Positions 12,346 to 22,186 of a DNA stretch of 64,000 bases are shown in pieces. The translations under genes were made by a program, and so were the position numbers. The first letter of the stretch is position 1; each line of letters begins with the position of its first letter. The stretch spans positions 2,944,001-3,008,000 of the forward strand of contig CM000208.1 in the NCBI GenBank assembly GCA_000002445.1, written 5' to 3'. Source of the stretch: Trypanosoma brucei. Its lineage: Eukaryota. The notes under the pieces were generated by a model. That model saw nothing but the letters and a program-made list of their open reading frames with translations. It searched no databases and was not told where the DNA came from.

Positions 12346-12655
12346 CAACTTCACCACGTACGACATTCGACCCCATCTTCGGCATGTGATCCGTTCCCAT
12401 CGTCACAGGAAGTGACTCACCGGTCAGTGCTGCTTCGTCAACGTCAATCACACCTTCGTTAATCGTGCAGTCAGCGGGAACGGCGGAACCAGACCCAAGC
12501 TTCACAAGGTCACCGGGAACCAGTAATGCGGCGTCTATCTGCTGCCAGGTACCGTCACGGTAAGCGGTCGCAATAGGTTTCAAAGAGTTCTTCAGTGCAG
12601 CGACCGCATCACCAGCTTTTATCGTCTCATACCACCCAATGAGAGCGTTAGCGAG
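12346..12655 (-). pseudogene. Internal fragment (about codons 119-222) of the P-type H+-ATPase gene; relic copy
   Basis: About 310 bp nearly identical to 21229-21540 of the full gene (ORF 12293..12583 translates KPIATAYRDGTWQQIDAALLVPGDLVKLGSGSAVPADCTINEGVIDVDEAALTGESLPVTMGT...). Homology stops abruptly at both ends. There is no start and no P-type catalytic motifs. Confidence 0.85.
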
Positions 12656-14630
12656 TAATGTTAGAACACCGAACCACCATGTTCTGGCTATTTTTTTGTA
12701 CTACTAATACTCCTTTCCACCCCTTTGTTCGTGTGTGTGGAGGGAGTATTAAAACCAGAGCACGAACACTGCGTGCACTGCAGAGAACATATGTGGAAAT
12801 TCAAATATTAACTGTGACGAGATTGAACATTTGGTGCGGTTCCTTCTTGACATAACCGCGTATCAGAAGGAACACGTTAGGGAATTTCCTAACCGACCAT
12901 AGTTTTTCGCCACATGCACACGTGGCTTATTCCTTTGCTACCTCCTTCATGCGGCAATTGCCGCCGCGCACCGTAACGGTAAACCCAGTGTATGACCTCT
13001 CAAGAAATACAATGGTATGCATTTTCGCAGGATGACAAAAGAAGAGGACCTATATCATCTTTGTCCCTTCGCAATTTGCTCCGCTCCCCTTGAAAAAAAA
13101 AAAATCACATGACCGTACCGCCAAGAAACTTTCACCGCGAGAAGAAAAAAGAGAAGAATAAAATGAGCTTCGAGGGTCAGAAGCAGTTTGAAGGTAACAG
13201 GTGAGCGTAGCGAAAGGAACAACGGCCTAAATAGAGTGATATTCTCCCACAATAACCTTTTCCTCTTCGCTTATTTGGCGTTCCCTTACTGATAGCACTT
13301 TTACCGGTAAACAAACTACCACGCATGCGACCGACCACAGGTTTTGAAAAAAAAAAGCTTTAGATTTTATTTAACAATCTCATTTTCCCCTCTGACTACG
13401 TCCGCACGGAAAAAAAATCAGAAAATAATTTAAGAGAAAGGTACAAAAAAATAAAGGAAAAACGTGCCAACACATTGCCCTCGTTTCTACTGGTTTTGTT
13501 TTATTTGATACCTTCGATACTGCGCCCCAAAACGACGGAAACCGCGAGTCAGTTCAGTAAAAGATTTGTGCACGATCCAAGGTTTGTAAGATTTCTTTTT
13601 CATCCTTTACCGTTTCTTTGGGAAGGATGGATGGAAATGCGACCGTCATCTCCCTTTTTTCTGTCTCCACGCGCTCCCGCTCAAATTTCCCTTTACTCCT
13701 CCTCTTTTTTCTTCGAAAGGGTGGGGCATTCGCATACGCGTACGTGCAGAAATACACTTACGGATATTTGCAATAATGTGCAAAGGGAGATGATCGGCAC
13801 GTTAAAGGAGAAAACGAAAAATATTGCATCACAACCGAATTACTCCCGCGGCGCCACTCGCCCCTTTTTTTTCTCCCAAGTACCCAATACCACAAACCAC
13901 CCACTTTGAAAAGTTCCCCCCCTTTTTTTCCTTAGCCTCTGCTTTTTCCTAACCTCACTCCCCTGGCAATAATGTAGTTCCTCTTCTCCATTTCTCTTTC
14001 TCTCCCCATAAATGCCCGGGTTACACTGAGCACCAAAATATTTCACACAATGGTGCGGTGCTACTACGATGAAGCGAAGGAAAAAAAAAAGATGGATAAC
14101 CTCACAAATTTCACTCGTGTTTTCTTCTCAATTTCTCATTGATTGCATTCGTAAGCTTTCCCCCTTTTACATATATCTTAAAATCTTTTTACAATAAACA
14201 CTACTCGCTTCCCTCCTCTTTCCGCTATCATCAATGTAAGTACAACAAAATTACGCAAGCACCCAAGCTGTAAACGCGTGCTTCGTTCATAAGAAAATGA
14301 CGCTCTATCTTTTTTTTCCTTTACCTTTCATTACATTATCAATCTTTCGCAGTGTGTCAGTCCTATCGTTTGCCCTCCCACACACACACTTACACACACA
14401 CCATCATTACCAACTACTAAAAGTTCAAAACAAATAAACAATAACAACGATAATAAAGTCACCTCGTCATCTCTCCACTTTACGAGAGGGAATCATGACC
14501 GGTCCATCGAAATAATGCCGAGGCACATCGGAGGTTGCGAAATGGCCAGTTTTTTTCTCATTACACTTCGTCCCGTGTTTAGGAATTTTTTTAAACTGAA
14601 GGCTCTAATTACAGAGTCGACCGCGCGAGA

Positions 14631-14693
14631 ACCACCACCACCACCACTACCACCACCACCACCACCACCAAAAAAACAAACAAACAAACAAAG
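14631..14693. repeat. (ACC)13 followed by (CAAA)n microsatellite
   Basis: accaccacca... at 14631-14670, then aaaaaaacaaacaaacaaacaaag. Confidence 0.9.
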
Positions 14694-15444
14694 CGTTTAC
14701 GATAAAAAAAAAAAAGAATTAAGGAAAAGATCTTTTATTTCTCAGCATACACTCATGCTACTGCTGAAGCGTGCGACTGGGGTGACAAAATTAGAGGTTT
14801 ACGCTGCCGCTAATGGACAGGAGAACATCAGGCAACTGTTGAAATGCATATGGATGAGAACAATACCACACGCATGCAGCTCGCTACGTCCACGGTTGCG
14901 AGGGGAAATTGAATTATAACGACGGAACAATACCAAAAAAATCCGCTTTCCCACAAGTTAATGCACTGAAACATCGCAAAAAAAAGATGCATGAAAAGAA
15001 TATCCTCTCCAACAACAATACCCCACCTCTAGAGTTACCGATCACAGCCATGTCGCACACATAAAATACTCACAATAAAGACCGTTATATGTCTTTTCAT
15101 TAAAGAAAAGAAAAAAAATTAATAAAGCCAACATATAAGGGAAATAATGAGGATGAGGCAACAACGGAAGCGCACTGTTCAACCCCACAACAGCTTCGTG
15201 ATTCCCCACCTTCACCCACCCACCTTCACGCTCATTCAAAGAAAAAAAACATACACAAAAACTTACTAAGCATCCCTGATTAAAATGAAGGCCAACAGAT
15301 ACCACATTTCTAACCCCAATTCGCGAAAAGGAAAATAACACACGCACGCGCCTCCATATTAGCACAAACCAAACGAGAAAAGCGCAGCTTTATAAAAAAA
15401 AATCAATGTGATTGTTCCGAAAGGAGAAAAAAAATATAATATTT

Positions 15445-21895: not shown

Positions 21896-22002
21896 TTGTA
21901 TATTCCTTTGACCTTTACTACCTTAGATGTTACAAGTCTTCGGGAAGGGAAGAAACGAGTGCACAAGTCAGTGTTTCAGCAGTTGCACGACACCGGTGGA
22001 TT
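19217..22002. repeat. Tandem duplication unit (copy A) of the H+-ATPase locus
   Basis: Near-identical to 15505..18290. The units are separated by unique 3'UTR/intergenic sequence (18291..19216). Confidence 0.9.
21941..21958 (-). promoter_or_regulatory. Candidate polypyrimidine tract / SL acceptor region for ATPase copy A
   Basis: Identical to the element upstream of copy B. Confidence 0.35.
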
Positions 22003-22032
22003 TGCATCATCTGATCTGAATCTCTTTGTTTC

Positions 22033-22186
22033 TATACCACCCAATGAGAGCGTTAGGGAGCTGAATGCCGAGCAGGACGGCACCATCAGCAAAGTGCTGT
22101 AACGCAAACTGGATTATTATGACAATCCACATAACAATCGGCATAGGGCGCCATAGATTCCGCAAAAATATCAGCCAACTGGGTGT
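22033..22186 (-). pseudogene. Second relic fragment (about codons 73-124) of the H+-ATPase gene, upstream of copy A
   Basis: About 155 bp matching 21525-21678 of copy A with 3-4 mismatches. It is followed immediately by a (GTT)7-poly(T) microsatellite at 22187-22212. Confidence 0.75.

What the first reader, a model, noticed from the sequence alone, without database searches (positions are those of the whole stretch)
12627..22058. The two ATPase relics meet at the same ~25-bp sequence, forming a direct repeat around the ~9.4 kb block containing both functional copies
The downstream relic ends at ...TCATACCACCCAATGAGAGCGTTAGCGAG (12627-12655). The upstream relic begins with CTATACCACCCAATGAGAGCGTTAGGGAG (22030-22058). 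Together they cover contiguous gene coordinates that overlap by about 25 bp at a single breakpoint. This geometry, with the N-proximal piece upstream, the C-proximal piece downstream and the duplicated junction in direct orientation, looks like the scar of an ancestral ATPase copy split by insertion or unequal recombination of the array. It could also be the footprint of a circular amplicon reintegrated by homologous recombination. Either way it marks a recombination hot spot worth documenting.
Basis: inference. Interest (0 to 1): 0.7.

Follow-up and report, generated by a model that had tools for sequence, protein, structure and literature searches.

The report
Split ATPase relic flanking trypanosome proton-pump genes
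Two short dead fragments of a proton-pump gene bracket the working pump genes on Trypanosoma brucei chromosome 10 and fit together with a 27-base overlap, which is a real, old, single rearrangement scar shared by several T. brucei-group genomes, but an ordinary by-product of gene-array evolution and not a recombination hot spot.

Summary
F1 (12337-12655) equals ATPase gene nt 355-673. F2 (22034-22187) equals nt 228-381. Both lie in gene (minus) orientation and share exactly 27 nt (nt 355-381, 26/27 here, 27/27 in two sister genomes). The same 27-mer also sits inside both intact genes, so there are four copies.

The window is T. b. brucei TREU927 chromosome 10: kinesin, F1, TbHA1, TbHA3, F2, 850-aa gene. 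All four relic junctions recur in T. b. gambiense DAL972, where they flank one assembled ATPase. The junctions that could be read in T. equiperdum OVI and one Logan isolate also match. So this is neither an assembly artefact nor a recurrent event.

T. vivax has a single ATPase and no relics between the same neighbours. Independent origin of the geometry has a probability of about 0.3-1.5%.

Best reading, mostly inferred: one ATPase copy was split at codons 119-127 by an insertion-type duplication of the locus into itself, which duplicated 27 nt. Deletions then trimmed both halves. F2's outer junction shows an imperfect microhomology typical of MMEJ.

"Hot spot" is not supported. A reintegrated circle is possible but less parsimonious. 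Interest is low to moderate.

The parts
8480..11878 (-). Kinesin gene (1132 aa from first ATG), the downstream single-copy neighbour of the ATPase locus
   Evidence: Pfam Kinesin motor domain, E=1.3e-55. BLASTP reports 100% identity (rounded) to T. equiperdum P0132 and places it in the same 90% cluster as the TREU927 kinesin XP_823454.1, but the exact window sequence was not on record. Orthologues follow the ATPase(s) in T. vivax and DAL972.
11879..12336 (-). 'k450': unique 458-nt spacer between F1 and the kinesin ATG
   Evidence: No homology to the ATPase gene in register or by gapped alignment. 97.8% identical to DAL972 (10/457), used as a neutral yardstick.
12337..12655 (-). F1: C-proximal ATPase relic, gene nt 355-673 (aa 119-224/225)
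   Evidence: 319 nt, 99.7% identical to copy B and 99.4% to copy A. tblastn E=4e-61. Both boundaries are sharp. Present in DAL972 at L006 15533-15852, and both its junctions are present in T. equiperdum.
12629..12655 (-). 27-mer (gene nt 355-381) at the inner end of F1
   Evidence: Exact copy of the 27-mer found in copies A and B.
12656..15444 (-). 'dA': 2789-nt unique spacer downstream of copy A. It abuts F1 at its promoter-distal end (junction Q|nt 355).
   Evidence: No ATPase remnants by tblastn. No Pfam hits in its ORFs. No similarity to the B-A spacer. The junction sequence is identical in DAL972 and T. equiperdum apart from a nearby SNP.
15445..18183 (-). ATPase copy A, 912 aa (TbHA1; identical to TREU927 XP_823455.1)
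   Evidence: Pfam E1-E2_ATPase, Cation_ATPase_N and Hydrolase. 0 differences to P0145. Naming from PMC6884021 Table 2.
19133..21895 (-). ATPase copy B, 920 aa (TbHA3; identical to TREU927 XP_823456.1)
   Evidence: Pfam as for copy A. 0 differences to P0146. Tandem unit of 3712 nt: 15502-18285 is 98.4% identical to 19214-21997.
21998..22033 (-). 36-nt unique linker between F2 (nt 381) and the start of the tandem-unit homology (-102 of copy B)
   Evidence: Tandem-unit homology ends at 21997 and F2 homology starts at 22034. The linker is identical in DAL972 and T. equiperdum.
22034..22187 (-). F2: N-proximal ATPase relic, gene nt 228-381 (aa 77-127). It contains the second flanking copy of the 27-mer at 22034-22060.
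   Evidence: 154 nt with 3 mismatches to both genes. tblastn E=3e-32. It has no start codon and carries G89R, L95M and A120P changes. nt 283 A is a difference from the genes fixed in all three genomes.
22188..22242 (-). Degenerate outer edge of F2. A T11(GTT)6 microsatellite (22188-22214; A11(CAA)6 on the gene strand) replaces the gene's GAAAAGAAAACA run. It is followed by 28 nt (22215-22242) matching gene nt 193-220 at 18/28.
   Evidence: Position-anchored comparison: the collinear register is the single best of 2712 gene registers. Microsatellite length varies between 927/T. equiperdum, DAL972 and ERR7929159.
22322..24874 (-). 850-aa conserved hypothetical gene, the upstream single-copy neighbour
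   Evidence: Orthologues in T. congolense (TCIL3000_10_11140), T. vivax, T. theileri and others. They precede the ATPase gene(s) in T. vivax, T. theileri and DAL972.

Best explanation
The two relics are the outer remains of one ATPase gene copy that a single insertion-type rearrangement broke between codons 119 and 127. A copy of the ATPase locus itself (5' flank, gene, 2.8-kb downstream spacer) was placed inside a resident ATPase gene, and 27 nt (nt 355-381) ended up on both sides.

The most likely route is aberrant repair of a break in the gene against the sister chromatid or homologue. One end first copied a few bases in register. Both ends then engaged the template out of register, one just upstream of the gene and the other 2.8 kb downstream, and the new strands met. 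This gives 850-gene / [5' flank + nt 1-381] / [5' flank + whole gene + spacer] / [nt 355-end + spacer] / kinesin.

The two crippled partial copies were then trimmed by deletions. The upstream deletion joined the 3' UTR of the 850-aa gene to nt ~228 through an imperfect A-rich microhomology (MMEJ). The downstream deletion removed nt 674 onward.

Later, ordinary unequal crossover of the 3712-nt unit changed the number of intact genes between the relics (two in TREU927, one assembled in DAL972). The relics have no function. They persist as short homology islands that probably still exchange sequence with the genes.

Shown: the anatomy, the conservation of junctions across genomes, ancestral synteny, the improbability of coincidence, and the microhomology at one junction. 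Inferred: the order of events, the repair pathway and the origin of the 27-nt duplication.
For: - Exact complementary geometry: F2 covers nt 228-381 and F1 covers nt 355-673, in the same orientation and right order, with a 27-nt overlap.
- P = 0.004-0.015 under independent origin.
- The 27-mer is 27/27 identical between F1 and F2 in DAL972 and T. equiperdum, as expected for a duplication made in one event.
- All four junctions are identical in DAL972. Those readable in T. equiperdum OVI, and one in ERR7929159, are also identical. This indicates a single event older than the split of these T. brucei-group lineages.
- The ATPase is ancestrally located between the same two genes, with one copy and no relics in T. 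vivax. The flanks next to the relics are therefore native, and the split copy sat in the native locus.
- The spacers contain no other ATPase remnants, so the relics are true fragments and not decayed whole genes.
- F2's outer junction carries an imperfect microhomology: 18/28 at the collinear register, unique best of 2712, plus an A-run. This matches the T. brucei MMEJ signature of 5-20 bp with mismatches tolerated (PMC3045614).
- T. brucei has no reported NHEJ. It repairs breaks by HR and MMEJ and shows 'one-sided MMEJ' gene conversion that duplicates sequence.
- The DAL972 gene is a B/A mosaic, showing later unequal exchange inside the relic-bounded block.
Against: - No genome with the pre-event state or with an intermediate (longer partial copies) could be examined. 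T. congolense contigs were not available.
- The intergenic flanks cannot be aligned to T. vivax or T. theileri.
- The model needs three events: the insertion plus two deletions.
- Three of the four junctions show no detectable microhomology, although for these the lost partner sequence is unknown.
- The origin of a 27-nt duplication by a short in-register synthesis step or a staggered break is conjecture.
- The 18/28 similarity at F2's edge could instead mean that F2 is an older, more diverged relic whose nt 228-381 part was recently overwritten by gene conversion.
Confidence: 0.5

Rival explanations
1. Two independent tandem duplications happened to share a breakpoint. One was a 516-nt duplication of [linker + 5' flank + nt 1-381] at the 5' end of the gene. 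The other was a ~5.2-kb duplication of [nt 355 - gene end - 2.8-kb spacer] at the 3' end. Each was followed by a trimming deletion. This gives exactly the same intermediate structure as the single-event model.
For: - Small and medium tandem duplications are the commonest structural changes in trypanosome gene arrays. Array copy number differs among T. theileri (at least 3), TREU927 (2) and DAL972 (1 assembled).
- F2 has a fixed private substitution (nt 283) and F1 has none, which is compatible with different ages.
- No unusual mechanism is needed for a 27-nt duplication.
Against: - It needs four events.
- It needs a coincidence of breakpoints within 27 nt, in the right order and orientation: P about 0.01, or about 0.003 including orientation.
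- There is no structural or sequence feature that would make nt 355-381 a preferred breakpoint.
- The difference in fixed substitutions (1/154 vs 0/319) is not significant.
Confidence: 0.2
2. Re-integration of an extrachromosomal circular amplicon. A circle carrying the ATPase gene(s), the 2.8-kb spacer and a single 27-mer recombined with a chromosomal ATPase copy or fragment through the 27-nt homology. This is ends-in integration, which duplicates the homology on both sides.
For: - Ends-in integration produces exactly this geometry: a direct duplication of the homology flanking the insert.
- T. brucei can integrate DNA on 24-25 bp of homology, independently of RAD51. The estimated minimal efficient processing segment is about 31 bp (PMC1904282).
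- The 27-mer copies are identical in sister genomes.
Against: - A circle excised from the array by homologous recombination would carry a whole gene. It would integrate through kilobases of homology without a scar.
- The required circle must have the 27-mer isolated between non-gene sequences (spacer end | 27-mer | linker). That itself needs an unexplained prior rearrangement.
- Recombination on 25 bp is about 500-fold less efficient than on 200 bp, while 2.7 kb of gene homology would have been available on the same circle.
- There is no evidence here for episomes.
Confidence: 0.1
3. Old relics with recent gene-conversion patches. Much older, heavily decayed ATPase remnants lie at both edges of the locus. 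F1 and F2 are only the parts recently overwritten by conversion from the functional genes, so the sharp boundaries are conversion-tract ends and not rearrangement breakpoints.
For: - Identity drops abruptly at F2's outer edge, from 98% (nt 228-381) to 64% (nt 193-220).
- F1 differs between TREU927 and DAL972 at 2/319 sites, against about 7 expected from neighbouring non-coding DNA (P about 0.03-0.05).
- F1's allele at nt 666 matches a functional copy in its own genome in both subspecies.
- Partial gene conversion is common in T. brucei arrays: chimaeric copies in 21 of 47 arrays (PMC1855330).
Against: - There is no residual protein- or DNA-level similarity to the ATPase beyond the relics at three of the four boundaries, or anywhere else in the spacers.
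- There is no room for the missing parts. Only 134 nt separate the 850-aa stop codon from F2, and 36 nt separate F2 from the unit of copy B.
- It does not explain why two conversion tracts should end within the same 27 nt.
- The 28-nt similarity is short enough to be an MMEJ microhomology.
Confidence: 0.1
4. Assembly artefact: mis-joined reads in a repetitive tandem-array region created chimeric fragments.
For: - Tandem arrays are often mis-assembled, and the assembled copy number is arbitrary (PMC2854126).
- The T. equiperdum scaffold visibly mis-threads or fails to resolve the 319-nt repeat, with a loop path and a 10-N gap.
Against: The same junctions, embedded in unique sequence carrying lineage-specific SNPs and microsatellite lengths, occur in independently sequenced genomes: TREU927, DAL972, T. 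equiperdum OVI and ERR7929159.
Confidence: 0.02

Closest known systems
Microhomology-mediated deletion and 'one-sided MMEJ' gene conversion in T. brucei (Glover, Jun & Horn 2011, PMC3045614)
   Same: Same organism and repair repertoire: no NHEJ, and junctions formed on 5-20 bp imperfect microhomologies. Duplicated sequence is copied from another template, with homologous engagement at one end and microhomology at the other. F2's outer junction shows such an imperfect microhomology.
   Different: Those events were induced experimentally at I-SceI breaks, and the deletions were small (mean 284 bp). Here the events are evolutionary and kilobases in size. Only one of four junctions shows a detectable microhomology. 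A 27-nt junction duplication was not a described outcome, as far as the abstract shows.
Ends-in (insertion-type) homologous integration of circular DNA, and short-homology recombination in T. brucei (Barnes & McCulloch 2007, PMC1904282)
   Same: The insert is flanked by a direct duplication of the homology. 24-25 bp suffices for rare integration in T. brucei.
   Different: The duplicated homology here is only 27 nt, although the putative circle would carry a complete homologous gene. No episome is known for this locus. The efficiency at that length is about 500-fold lower than at 200 bp.
Tandem gene arrays and concerted evolution in T. brucei (Jackson 2007, PMC1855330; DAL972 genome paper, PMC2854126)
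   Same: A polycistronic tandem array of near-identical genes, homogenised 5' regions, divergent 3' ends, copy-number differences between subspecies and mosaic copies.
   Different: The relic boundaries (nt 228, 355/381, 673) do not coincide with the repeat-unit boundaries (-102 and about nt 2680). The relics are therefore not simple truncated terminal units of the array. The term 'ATPase' does not occur in the main text of PMC1855330, and the H+-ATPase locus is not named in the main text of PMC2854126.
Target-site duplications of ingi/RIME-type retroposon insertions
   Same: A direct repeat of host sequence on both sides of an inserted block.
   Different: The insert is host genes plus spacers. 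It has no poly(A) at either end and no element-encoded domains. From my own knowledge, not tested here, ingi/RIME duplications are about 12 bp.
Nested/insertional duplications from template switching during break-induced or synthesis-dependent repair (MMBIR/FoSTeS-type events in yeast and human)
   Same: A copy of a nearby segment is inserted out of register, with short duplicated sequence at the junction and microhomology at breakpoints.
   Different: This comparison rests on general knowledge and was not tested here. No direct evidence exists for these pathways at this locus.

Membership tests
P3A-type plasma-membrane H+-ATPase gene (TbHA family): are the relics derived from it? | Sequence homology to the TbHA genes over the fragment, in gene frame | tested here: met
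   F1 is 98-99% identical at protein level to aa 119-224 (E=4e-61). F2 is 94% identical to aa 78-127 (E=3e-32). At DNA level they are 99.4-99.7% and about 98% identical. The full copies hit Pfam E1-E2_ATPase, Cation_ATPase_N and Hydrolase.
P3A-type plasma-membrane H+-ATPase gene: are the relics functional members? | Complete ORF with start codon, phosphorylation/hydrolase domain and transmembrane segments | tested here: not met
   F1 covers 106 codons and F2 about 51. F2's frame has no in-frame ATG upstream and runs into a stop 11 codons after the break. No further ATPase sequence adjoins them.
Mobile-element insertion with target-site duplication | Direct repeat of target sequence flanking the insert | tested here: met
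   A 27-nt direct repeat lies at 12629-12655 and 22034-22060.
Mobile-element insertion with target-site duplication | The insert is a mobile element (poly(A) tail or terminal repeats; RT, endonuclease or transposase coding capacity) | tested here: not met
   The insert consists of two ATPase genes and spacers. There is no poly(A) at 12656 onward or at ...22033 on either strand. There is no significant terminal inverted repeat. There are no Pfam domains in the spacer ORFs.
Truncated terminal unit of a tandem array (unequal crossover edge copy) | Partial copy in array orientation directly at the array edge | tested here: met
   Both relics are in gene orientation at the two edges of the locus.
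Truncated terminal unit of a tandem array (unequal crossover edge copy) | One boundary of the partial copy coincides with the repeat-unit boundary | tested here: not met
   Unit homology runs from -102 to about nt 2682 (15502-18285 and 19214-21997). Relic boundaries lie at nt 228, 381, 355 and 673.
MMEJ deletion junction (T. brucei type) | Imperfect microhomology of about 5-20 bp shared by the retained flank and the deleted end | tested here: inconclusive
   The feature is met at u1|F2: 18/28 at the collinear register, the unique best of 2712, plus an A-run. It was not detected at F1|k450. At the two inner junctions the lost partner sequences are unknown.
Ends-in integration of a circular amplicon by homologous recombination | Duplicated homology flanking the insert, of a length the recombination machinery can use | tested here: met
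   There is a 27-nt duplication. T. brucei integrates on 24-25 bp at low efficiency (PMC1904282).
Ends-in integration of a circular amplicon by homologous recombination | Existence of the circular form, or of its junction (spacer end | 27-mer | linker) | not testable with these tools
   No read-level or circular-DNA data were available. The junction is absent from the window and from loci L001-L011.
Recombination hot spot | Independent, recurrent breakpoints at the site in different lineages or copies | tested here: not met
   Junctions are identical by descent in every genome where they could be read: all four in DAL972, those readable in T. equiperdum, and one in a Logan isolate. T. vivax and the held part of the T. 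theileri locus show no breakpoints there. Fold z = -1.27.

The most novel reading that the evidence does not exclude
The relics are not inert. They may be maintained as homology islands at both edges of the proton-pump array, actively exchanging sequence with the functional genes. They would then act as a small reservoir of variant codons (e.g. G89R and L95M in F2) and as anchors that guide expansion, contraction or excision of the array as a unit. The 27-nt direct repeats would allow excision and reintegration of a 5.7-9.4-kb ATPase circle. That would be a natural, reversible gene-amplification cassette in T. brucei, an organism in which such episomes are thought to be rare.
Probability: 0.05. 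Interest if true: 0.6.

Novelty: new member of a known kind. Interest (0 to 1): 0.25.

Why it matters
This is a clean, datable natural example of how trypanosome housekeeping gene arrays are remodelled. A locus copy was inserted into its own gene, and the debris was trimmed by microhomology-mediated deletion, in an organism that lacks NHEJ.

It gives annotators two unrecognised pseudogene fragments next to Tb927 chromosome-10 TbHA1/TbHA3. It also warns that 154-319-nt gene-identical islands flank the array. These islands confuse short-read assemblies, as the T. equiperdum scaffold shows. They could also confound read-depth copy-number estimates, RNAi or probe design, and CRISPR or homologous targeting of the TbHA genes.

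It does not open a new biological question by itself.

Tried and rejected
- Exact-protein look-ups of copy A, copy B and the kinesin of the window found nothing. TREU927 P0145 was also not retrievable, so TREU927 itself could not be re-fetched. Identity to TREU927 was shown at protein level instead.
- T. congolense, the key outgroup, has proteins in the database but no contigs. The pre-event state could not be examined.
- Intergenic flanks cannot be aligned to T. vivax or T. theileri. Only coding homology survives.
- I tested whether the linker is contiguous with u1 or with the end of the 2.8-kb spacer by comparing both constructs with the B-A spacer. There was no signal either way (z = 1.7 and -0.3).
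- Retroposition or a processed pseudogene was rejected: no poly(A), and the fragments are internal to the gene.
- Decayed whole-gene copies were rejected: no residual similarity by tblastn.
- A structural hot spot was rejected: the DNA fold is not unusual.
- The apparent 2136-nt 'long F1' in T. equiperdum was traced to a scaffold with a 10-N gap. The contig starts at the position (window 15693) that directly follows its own end (15694-equivalent), which is an unresolved loop through the 319-nt repeat. I did not use it as evidence for a longer relic.
- My first anchored test of F2's edge used a wrong register and gave nothing. The corrected test is.
- Logan kinesin contigs stop about 300-335 nt upstream of the ATG and do not reach F1.

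
Full report
**What is in the sequence**

All genes in 8-25 kb of the window lie on the minus strand. In transcription order they run as follows:

| Element | Coordinates | Notes |
|---|---|---|
| 850-aa conserved hypothetical gene | 22322-24874 | upstream single-copy neighbour |
| Non-coding DNA (u1) | 22188-22321 | 134 nt |
| F2 relic | 22034-22187 | ATPase gene nt 228-381 |
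| Unique linker | 21998-22033 | 36 nt |
| ATPase copy B | 19133-21895 | 920 aa |
| ATPase copy A | 15445-18183 | 912 aa |
| Unique spacer (dA) | 12656-15444 | 2789 nt |
| F1 relic | 12337-12655 | ATPase gene nt 355-673 |
| Unique DNA (k450) | 11879-12336 | 458 nt |
| Kinesin gene | 8480-11878 | downstream single-copy neighbour |

Copies A and B form a 3712-nt tandem repeat: 15502-18285 is 98.4% identical to 19214-21997. They diverge only at the 3' end.

- F1 has 1 mismatch to copy B and 2 to copy A over 319 nt.
- F2 has 3 mismatches to both copies over 154 nt.
- The two relics share exactly 27 nt, gene nt 355-381 (codons 119-127), with 26/27 identity.
- The same 27-mer lies inside both genes, giving four copies where none is expected by chance.

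The overlap is 27 nt, not about 25. The second 29-mer starts at 22032, not 22030.

**Identity of the locus**

The two ATPases are identical to TREU927 XP_823455.1 and XP_823456.1. According to Table 2 of PMC6884021 these are TbHA1 (912 aa) and TbHA3 (920 aa). The upstream neighbour's T. congolense orthologue is TCIL3000_10_11140. The window is thus T. b. brucei chromosome 10.

**Is it real?**

- T. b. gambiense DAL972 (L006) has the same four relic junctions: F2 at 9709-9865 and F1 at 15533-15852. They flank one assembled ATPase.
- T. equiperdum OVI has u1|F2|linker on contig CZPT02001512.1. It has spacer|F1 and F1|kinesin-flank on scaffold CZPT02000209.1.
- A Logan assembly of run ERR7929159 has u1|F2 with a contracted microsatellite.
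- Lineage-specific SNPs next to the junctions show these are independent data.

The T. equiperdum scaffold appears to continue F1 for 2136 nt. However, it has a 10-N gap, and the contig starts at the position that directly follows its own end. This is an unresolved loop through the 319-nt repeat, so I give it no weight.

**Ancestral state**

- T. vivax has the order 850-aa orthologue, one ATPase, kinesin, and no relics.
- T. theileri has at least three tandem ATPases after the 850-aa orthologue.

The ATPase is therefore native to this position, and the relics sit against the native neighbours.

**More than chance?**

If the relics were independent random fragments of the gene, an overlap of 0-40 nt with the N-proximal piece upstream has P=0.015. 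Requiring both pieces in gene orientation gives P=0.004.

The shared 27 nt are identical in DAL972 and T. equiperdum, so the one mismatch is private to TREU927. The region has no unusual folding potential (z=-1.27).

**True fragments or decayed genes?**

In-register comparison, gapped alignment with shuffles and tblastn find no further ATPase similarity in any spacer. There is one exception.

At F2's outer edge the gene's GAAAAGAAAACA run is replaced by an A11(CAA)6 microsatellite. The 28 nt upstream of it (window 22215-22242) match gene nt 193-220 at 18/28. This collinear register is the single best of 2712 possible registers. Further upstream the similarity is at background level.

This is what an MMEJ deletion junction looks like in T. 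brucei: 5-20 bp microhomology with mismatches tolerated (PMC3045614). It could alternatively be the edge of an older relic whose interior was renewed by conversion.

**Mechanism (inferred)**

The simplest history that explains a continuous gene segment split at one point with a 27-nt duplication is an insertion-type duplication of the locus into one of its own gene copies. The intermediate would be:

850-gene / [5' flank, nt 1-381] / [5' flank, whole gene, 2.8-kb spacer] / [nt 355-end, spacer] / kinesin

Two trimming deletions then followed. T. brucei has no reported NHEJ. It repairs breaks by HR and MMEJ, and it shows one-sided MMEJ gene conversion that duplicates sequence. A two-ended break whose ends engaged the sister chromatid out of register would produce this structure. 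The 27-nt duplication could come from a short in-register synthesis step before template switching, or from a staggered break.

Two independent tandem duplications give the same intermediate, but they need the roughly 1% coincidence.

A circle integrating through the 27-mer is mechanistically possible, because 24-25 bp suffices at about 500-fold reduced efficiency, with a minimal efficient processing segment of about 31 bp (PMC1904282). It requires a circle that carries an isolated 27-mer although it also contains a complete homologous gene.

**After the event**

The DAL972 gene is B-like at nt 140-146 and A-like from nt 665 on. That fits unequal crossover, or assembly collapse, within the homogenised 5' region. 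The DAL972 paper notes that assembled copy numbers in arrays are arbitrary.

Neighbouring non-coding DNA differs by about 2% between TREU927 and DAL972: 10/457 in k450, and 56 mismatches in dA. F1 differs at only 2/319 sites, with about 7 expected (P=0.03-0.05). At nt 666, F1 carries the allele of a functional copy of its own genome in both subspecies.

F2 has one difference from the genes fixed in all three genomes (nt 283), plus polymorphic ones.

These are hints of continuing gene conversion between relics and genes, not proof. Partial gene conversion is common in T. brucei arrays (PMC1855330).

**Verdict**

The 'split ancestral copy' reading is supported as the best explanation at moderate confidence. 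'Hot spot' is not supported. The circular-amplicon idea is not excluded but is unlikely.

I found no mention of the relics in the papers searched. The feature is an ordinary kind of rearrangement scar in a well-studied locus, which is why I score interest at 0.25.

Noticed in passing
window 22188-22214; L006 ~9680-9708; L011 ~3390-3405: The T11(GTT)6 microsatellite (A11(CAA)6 on the gene strand) at F2's outer edge is length-polymorphic. It is A11(CAA)6 in TREU927 and T. equiperdum, A7(CAA)6 in DAL972, and A7-CACA in the Logan isolate ERR7929159. It appears to have grown out of the gene's GAAAAGAAAACA run (codons PEKKT).
   Followed up: partly
L006 10001-12739 (T. b. gambiense DAL972, FN554973.1): DAL972 is assembled with one ATPase where TREU927 has two. 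The gene is a mosaic, B-like at nt 140-146 and A-like from nt 665. This indicates either a real unequal-crossover contraction or a collapsed array.
   Followed up: partly
L005 1-5171 (T. equiperdum OVI, CZPT02000209.1): After the spacer|F1 junction, the scaffold follows B-like gene sequence for 2136 nt. It then has NNNNNNNNNN and resumes with the last 32 nt of F1. The contig starts at the position that directly follows its own end, so this is an unresolved assembly loop. The true length of F1 in this genome is unknown.
   Followed up: partly
L001 12254-12411 (T. equiperdum OVI, end of CZPT02001512.1): The 5' part of copy B in T. equiperdum carries F2's variants at gene nt 265 (C) and 283 (A), which would give G89R and L95M in the pump. 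This is either gene conversion from the relic into a functional gene or a collapsed repeat at a contig end.
   Followed up: no
window 15445-15700 vs 19133-19405: Copies A and B are nearly identical for about 2.5 kb but diverge sharply over the last ~70 codons and the 3' UTR (912 vs 920 aa). T. theileri shows a similar alternation: copies 1 and 3 are 97.9% identical, while copy 2 is 87% identical to copy 1. This suggests an old two-isoform unit.
   Followed up: no
window 37978-38631: A 138-nt tandem repeat, 4.7 copies at 97% identity, pyrimidine-rich on the plus strand. It is probably a repetitive coding region of a minus-strand gene.
   Followed up: no
window 12656-15444; L006 14189-14530: The 2.8-kb spacer downstream of copy A is unusually long for this compact genome. 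It has no Pfam-recognisable ORFs. In DAL972 a 113-residue gene is called on the opposite strand inside it. The spacer is also the most indel-rich stretch between TREU927 and DAL972, with 25 gap openings in 2.8 kb.
   Followed up: no
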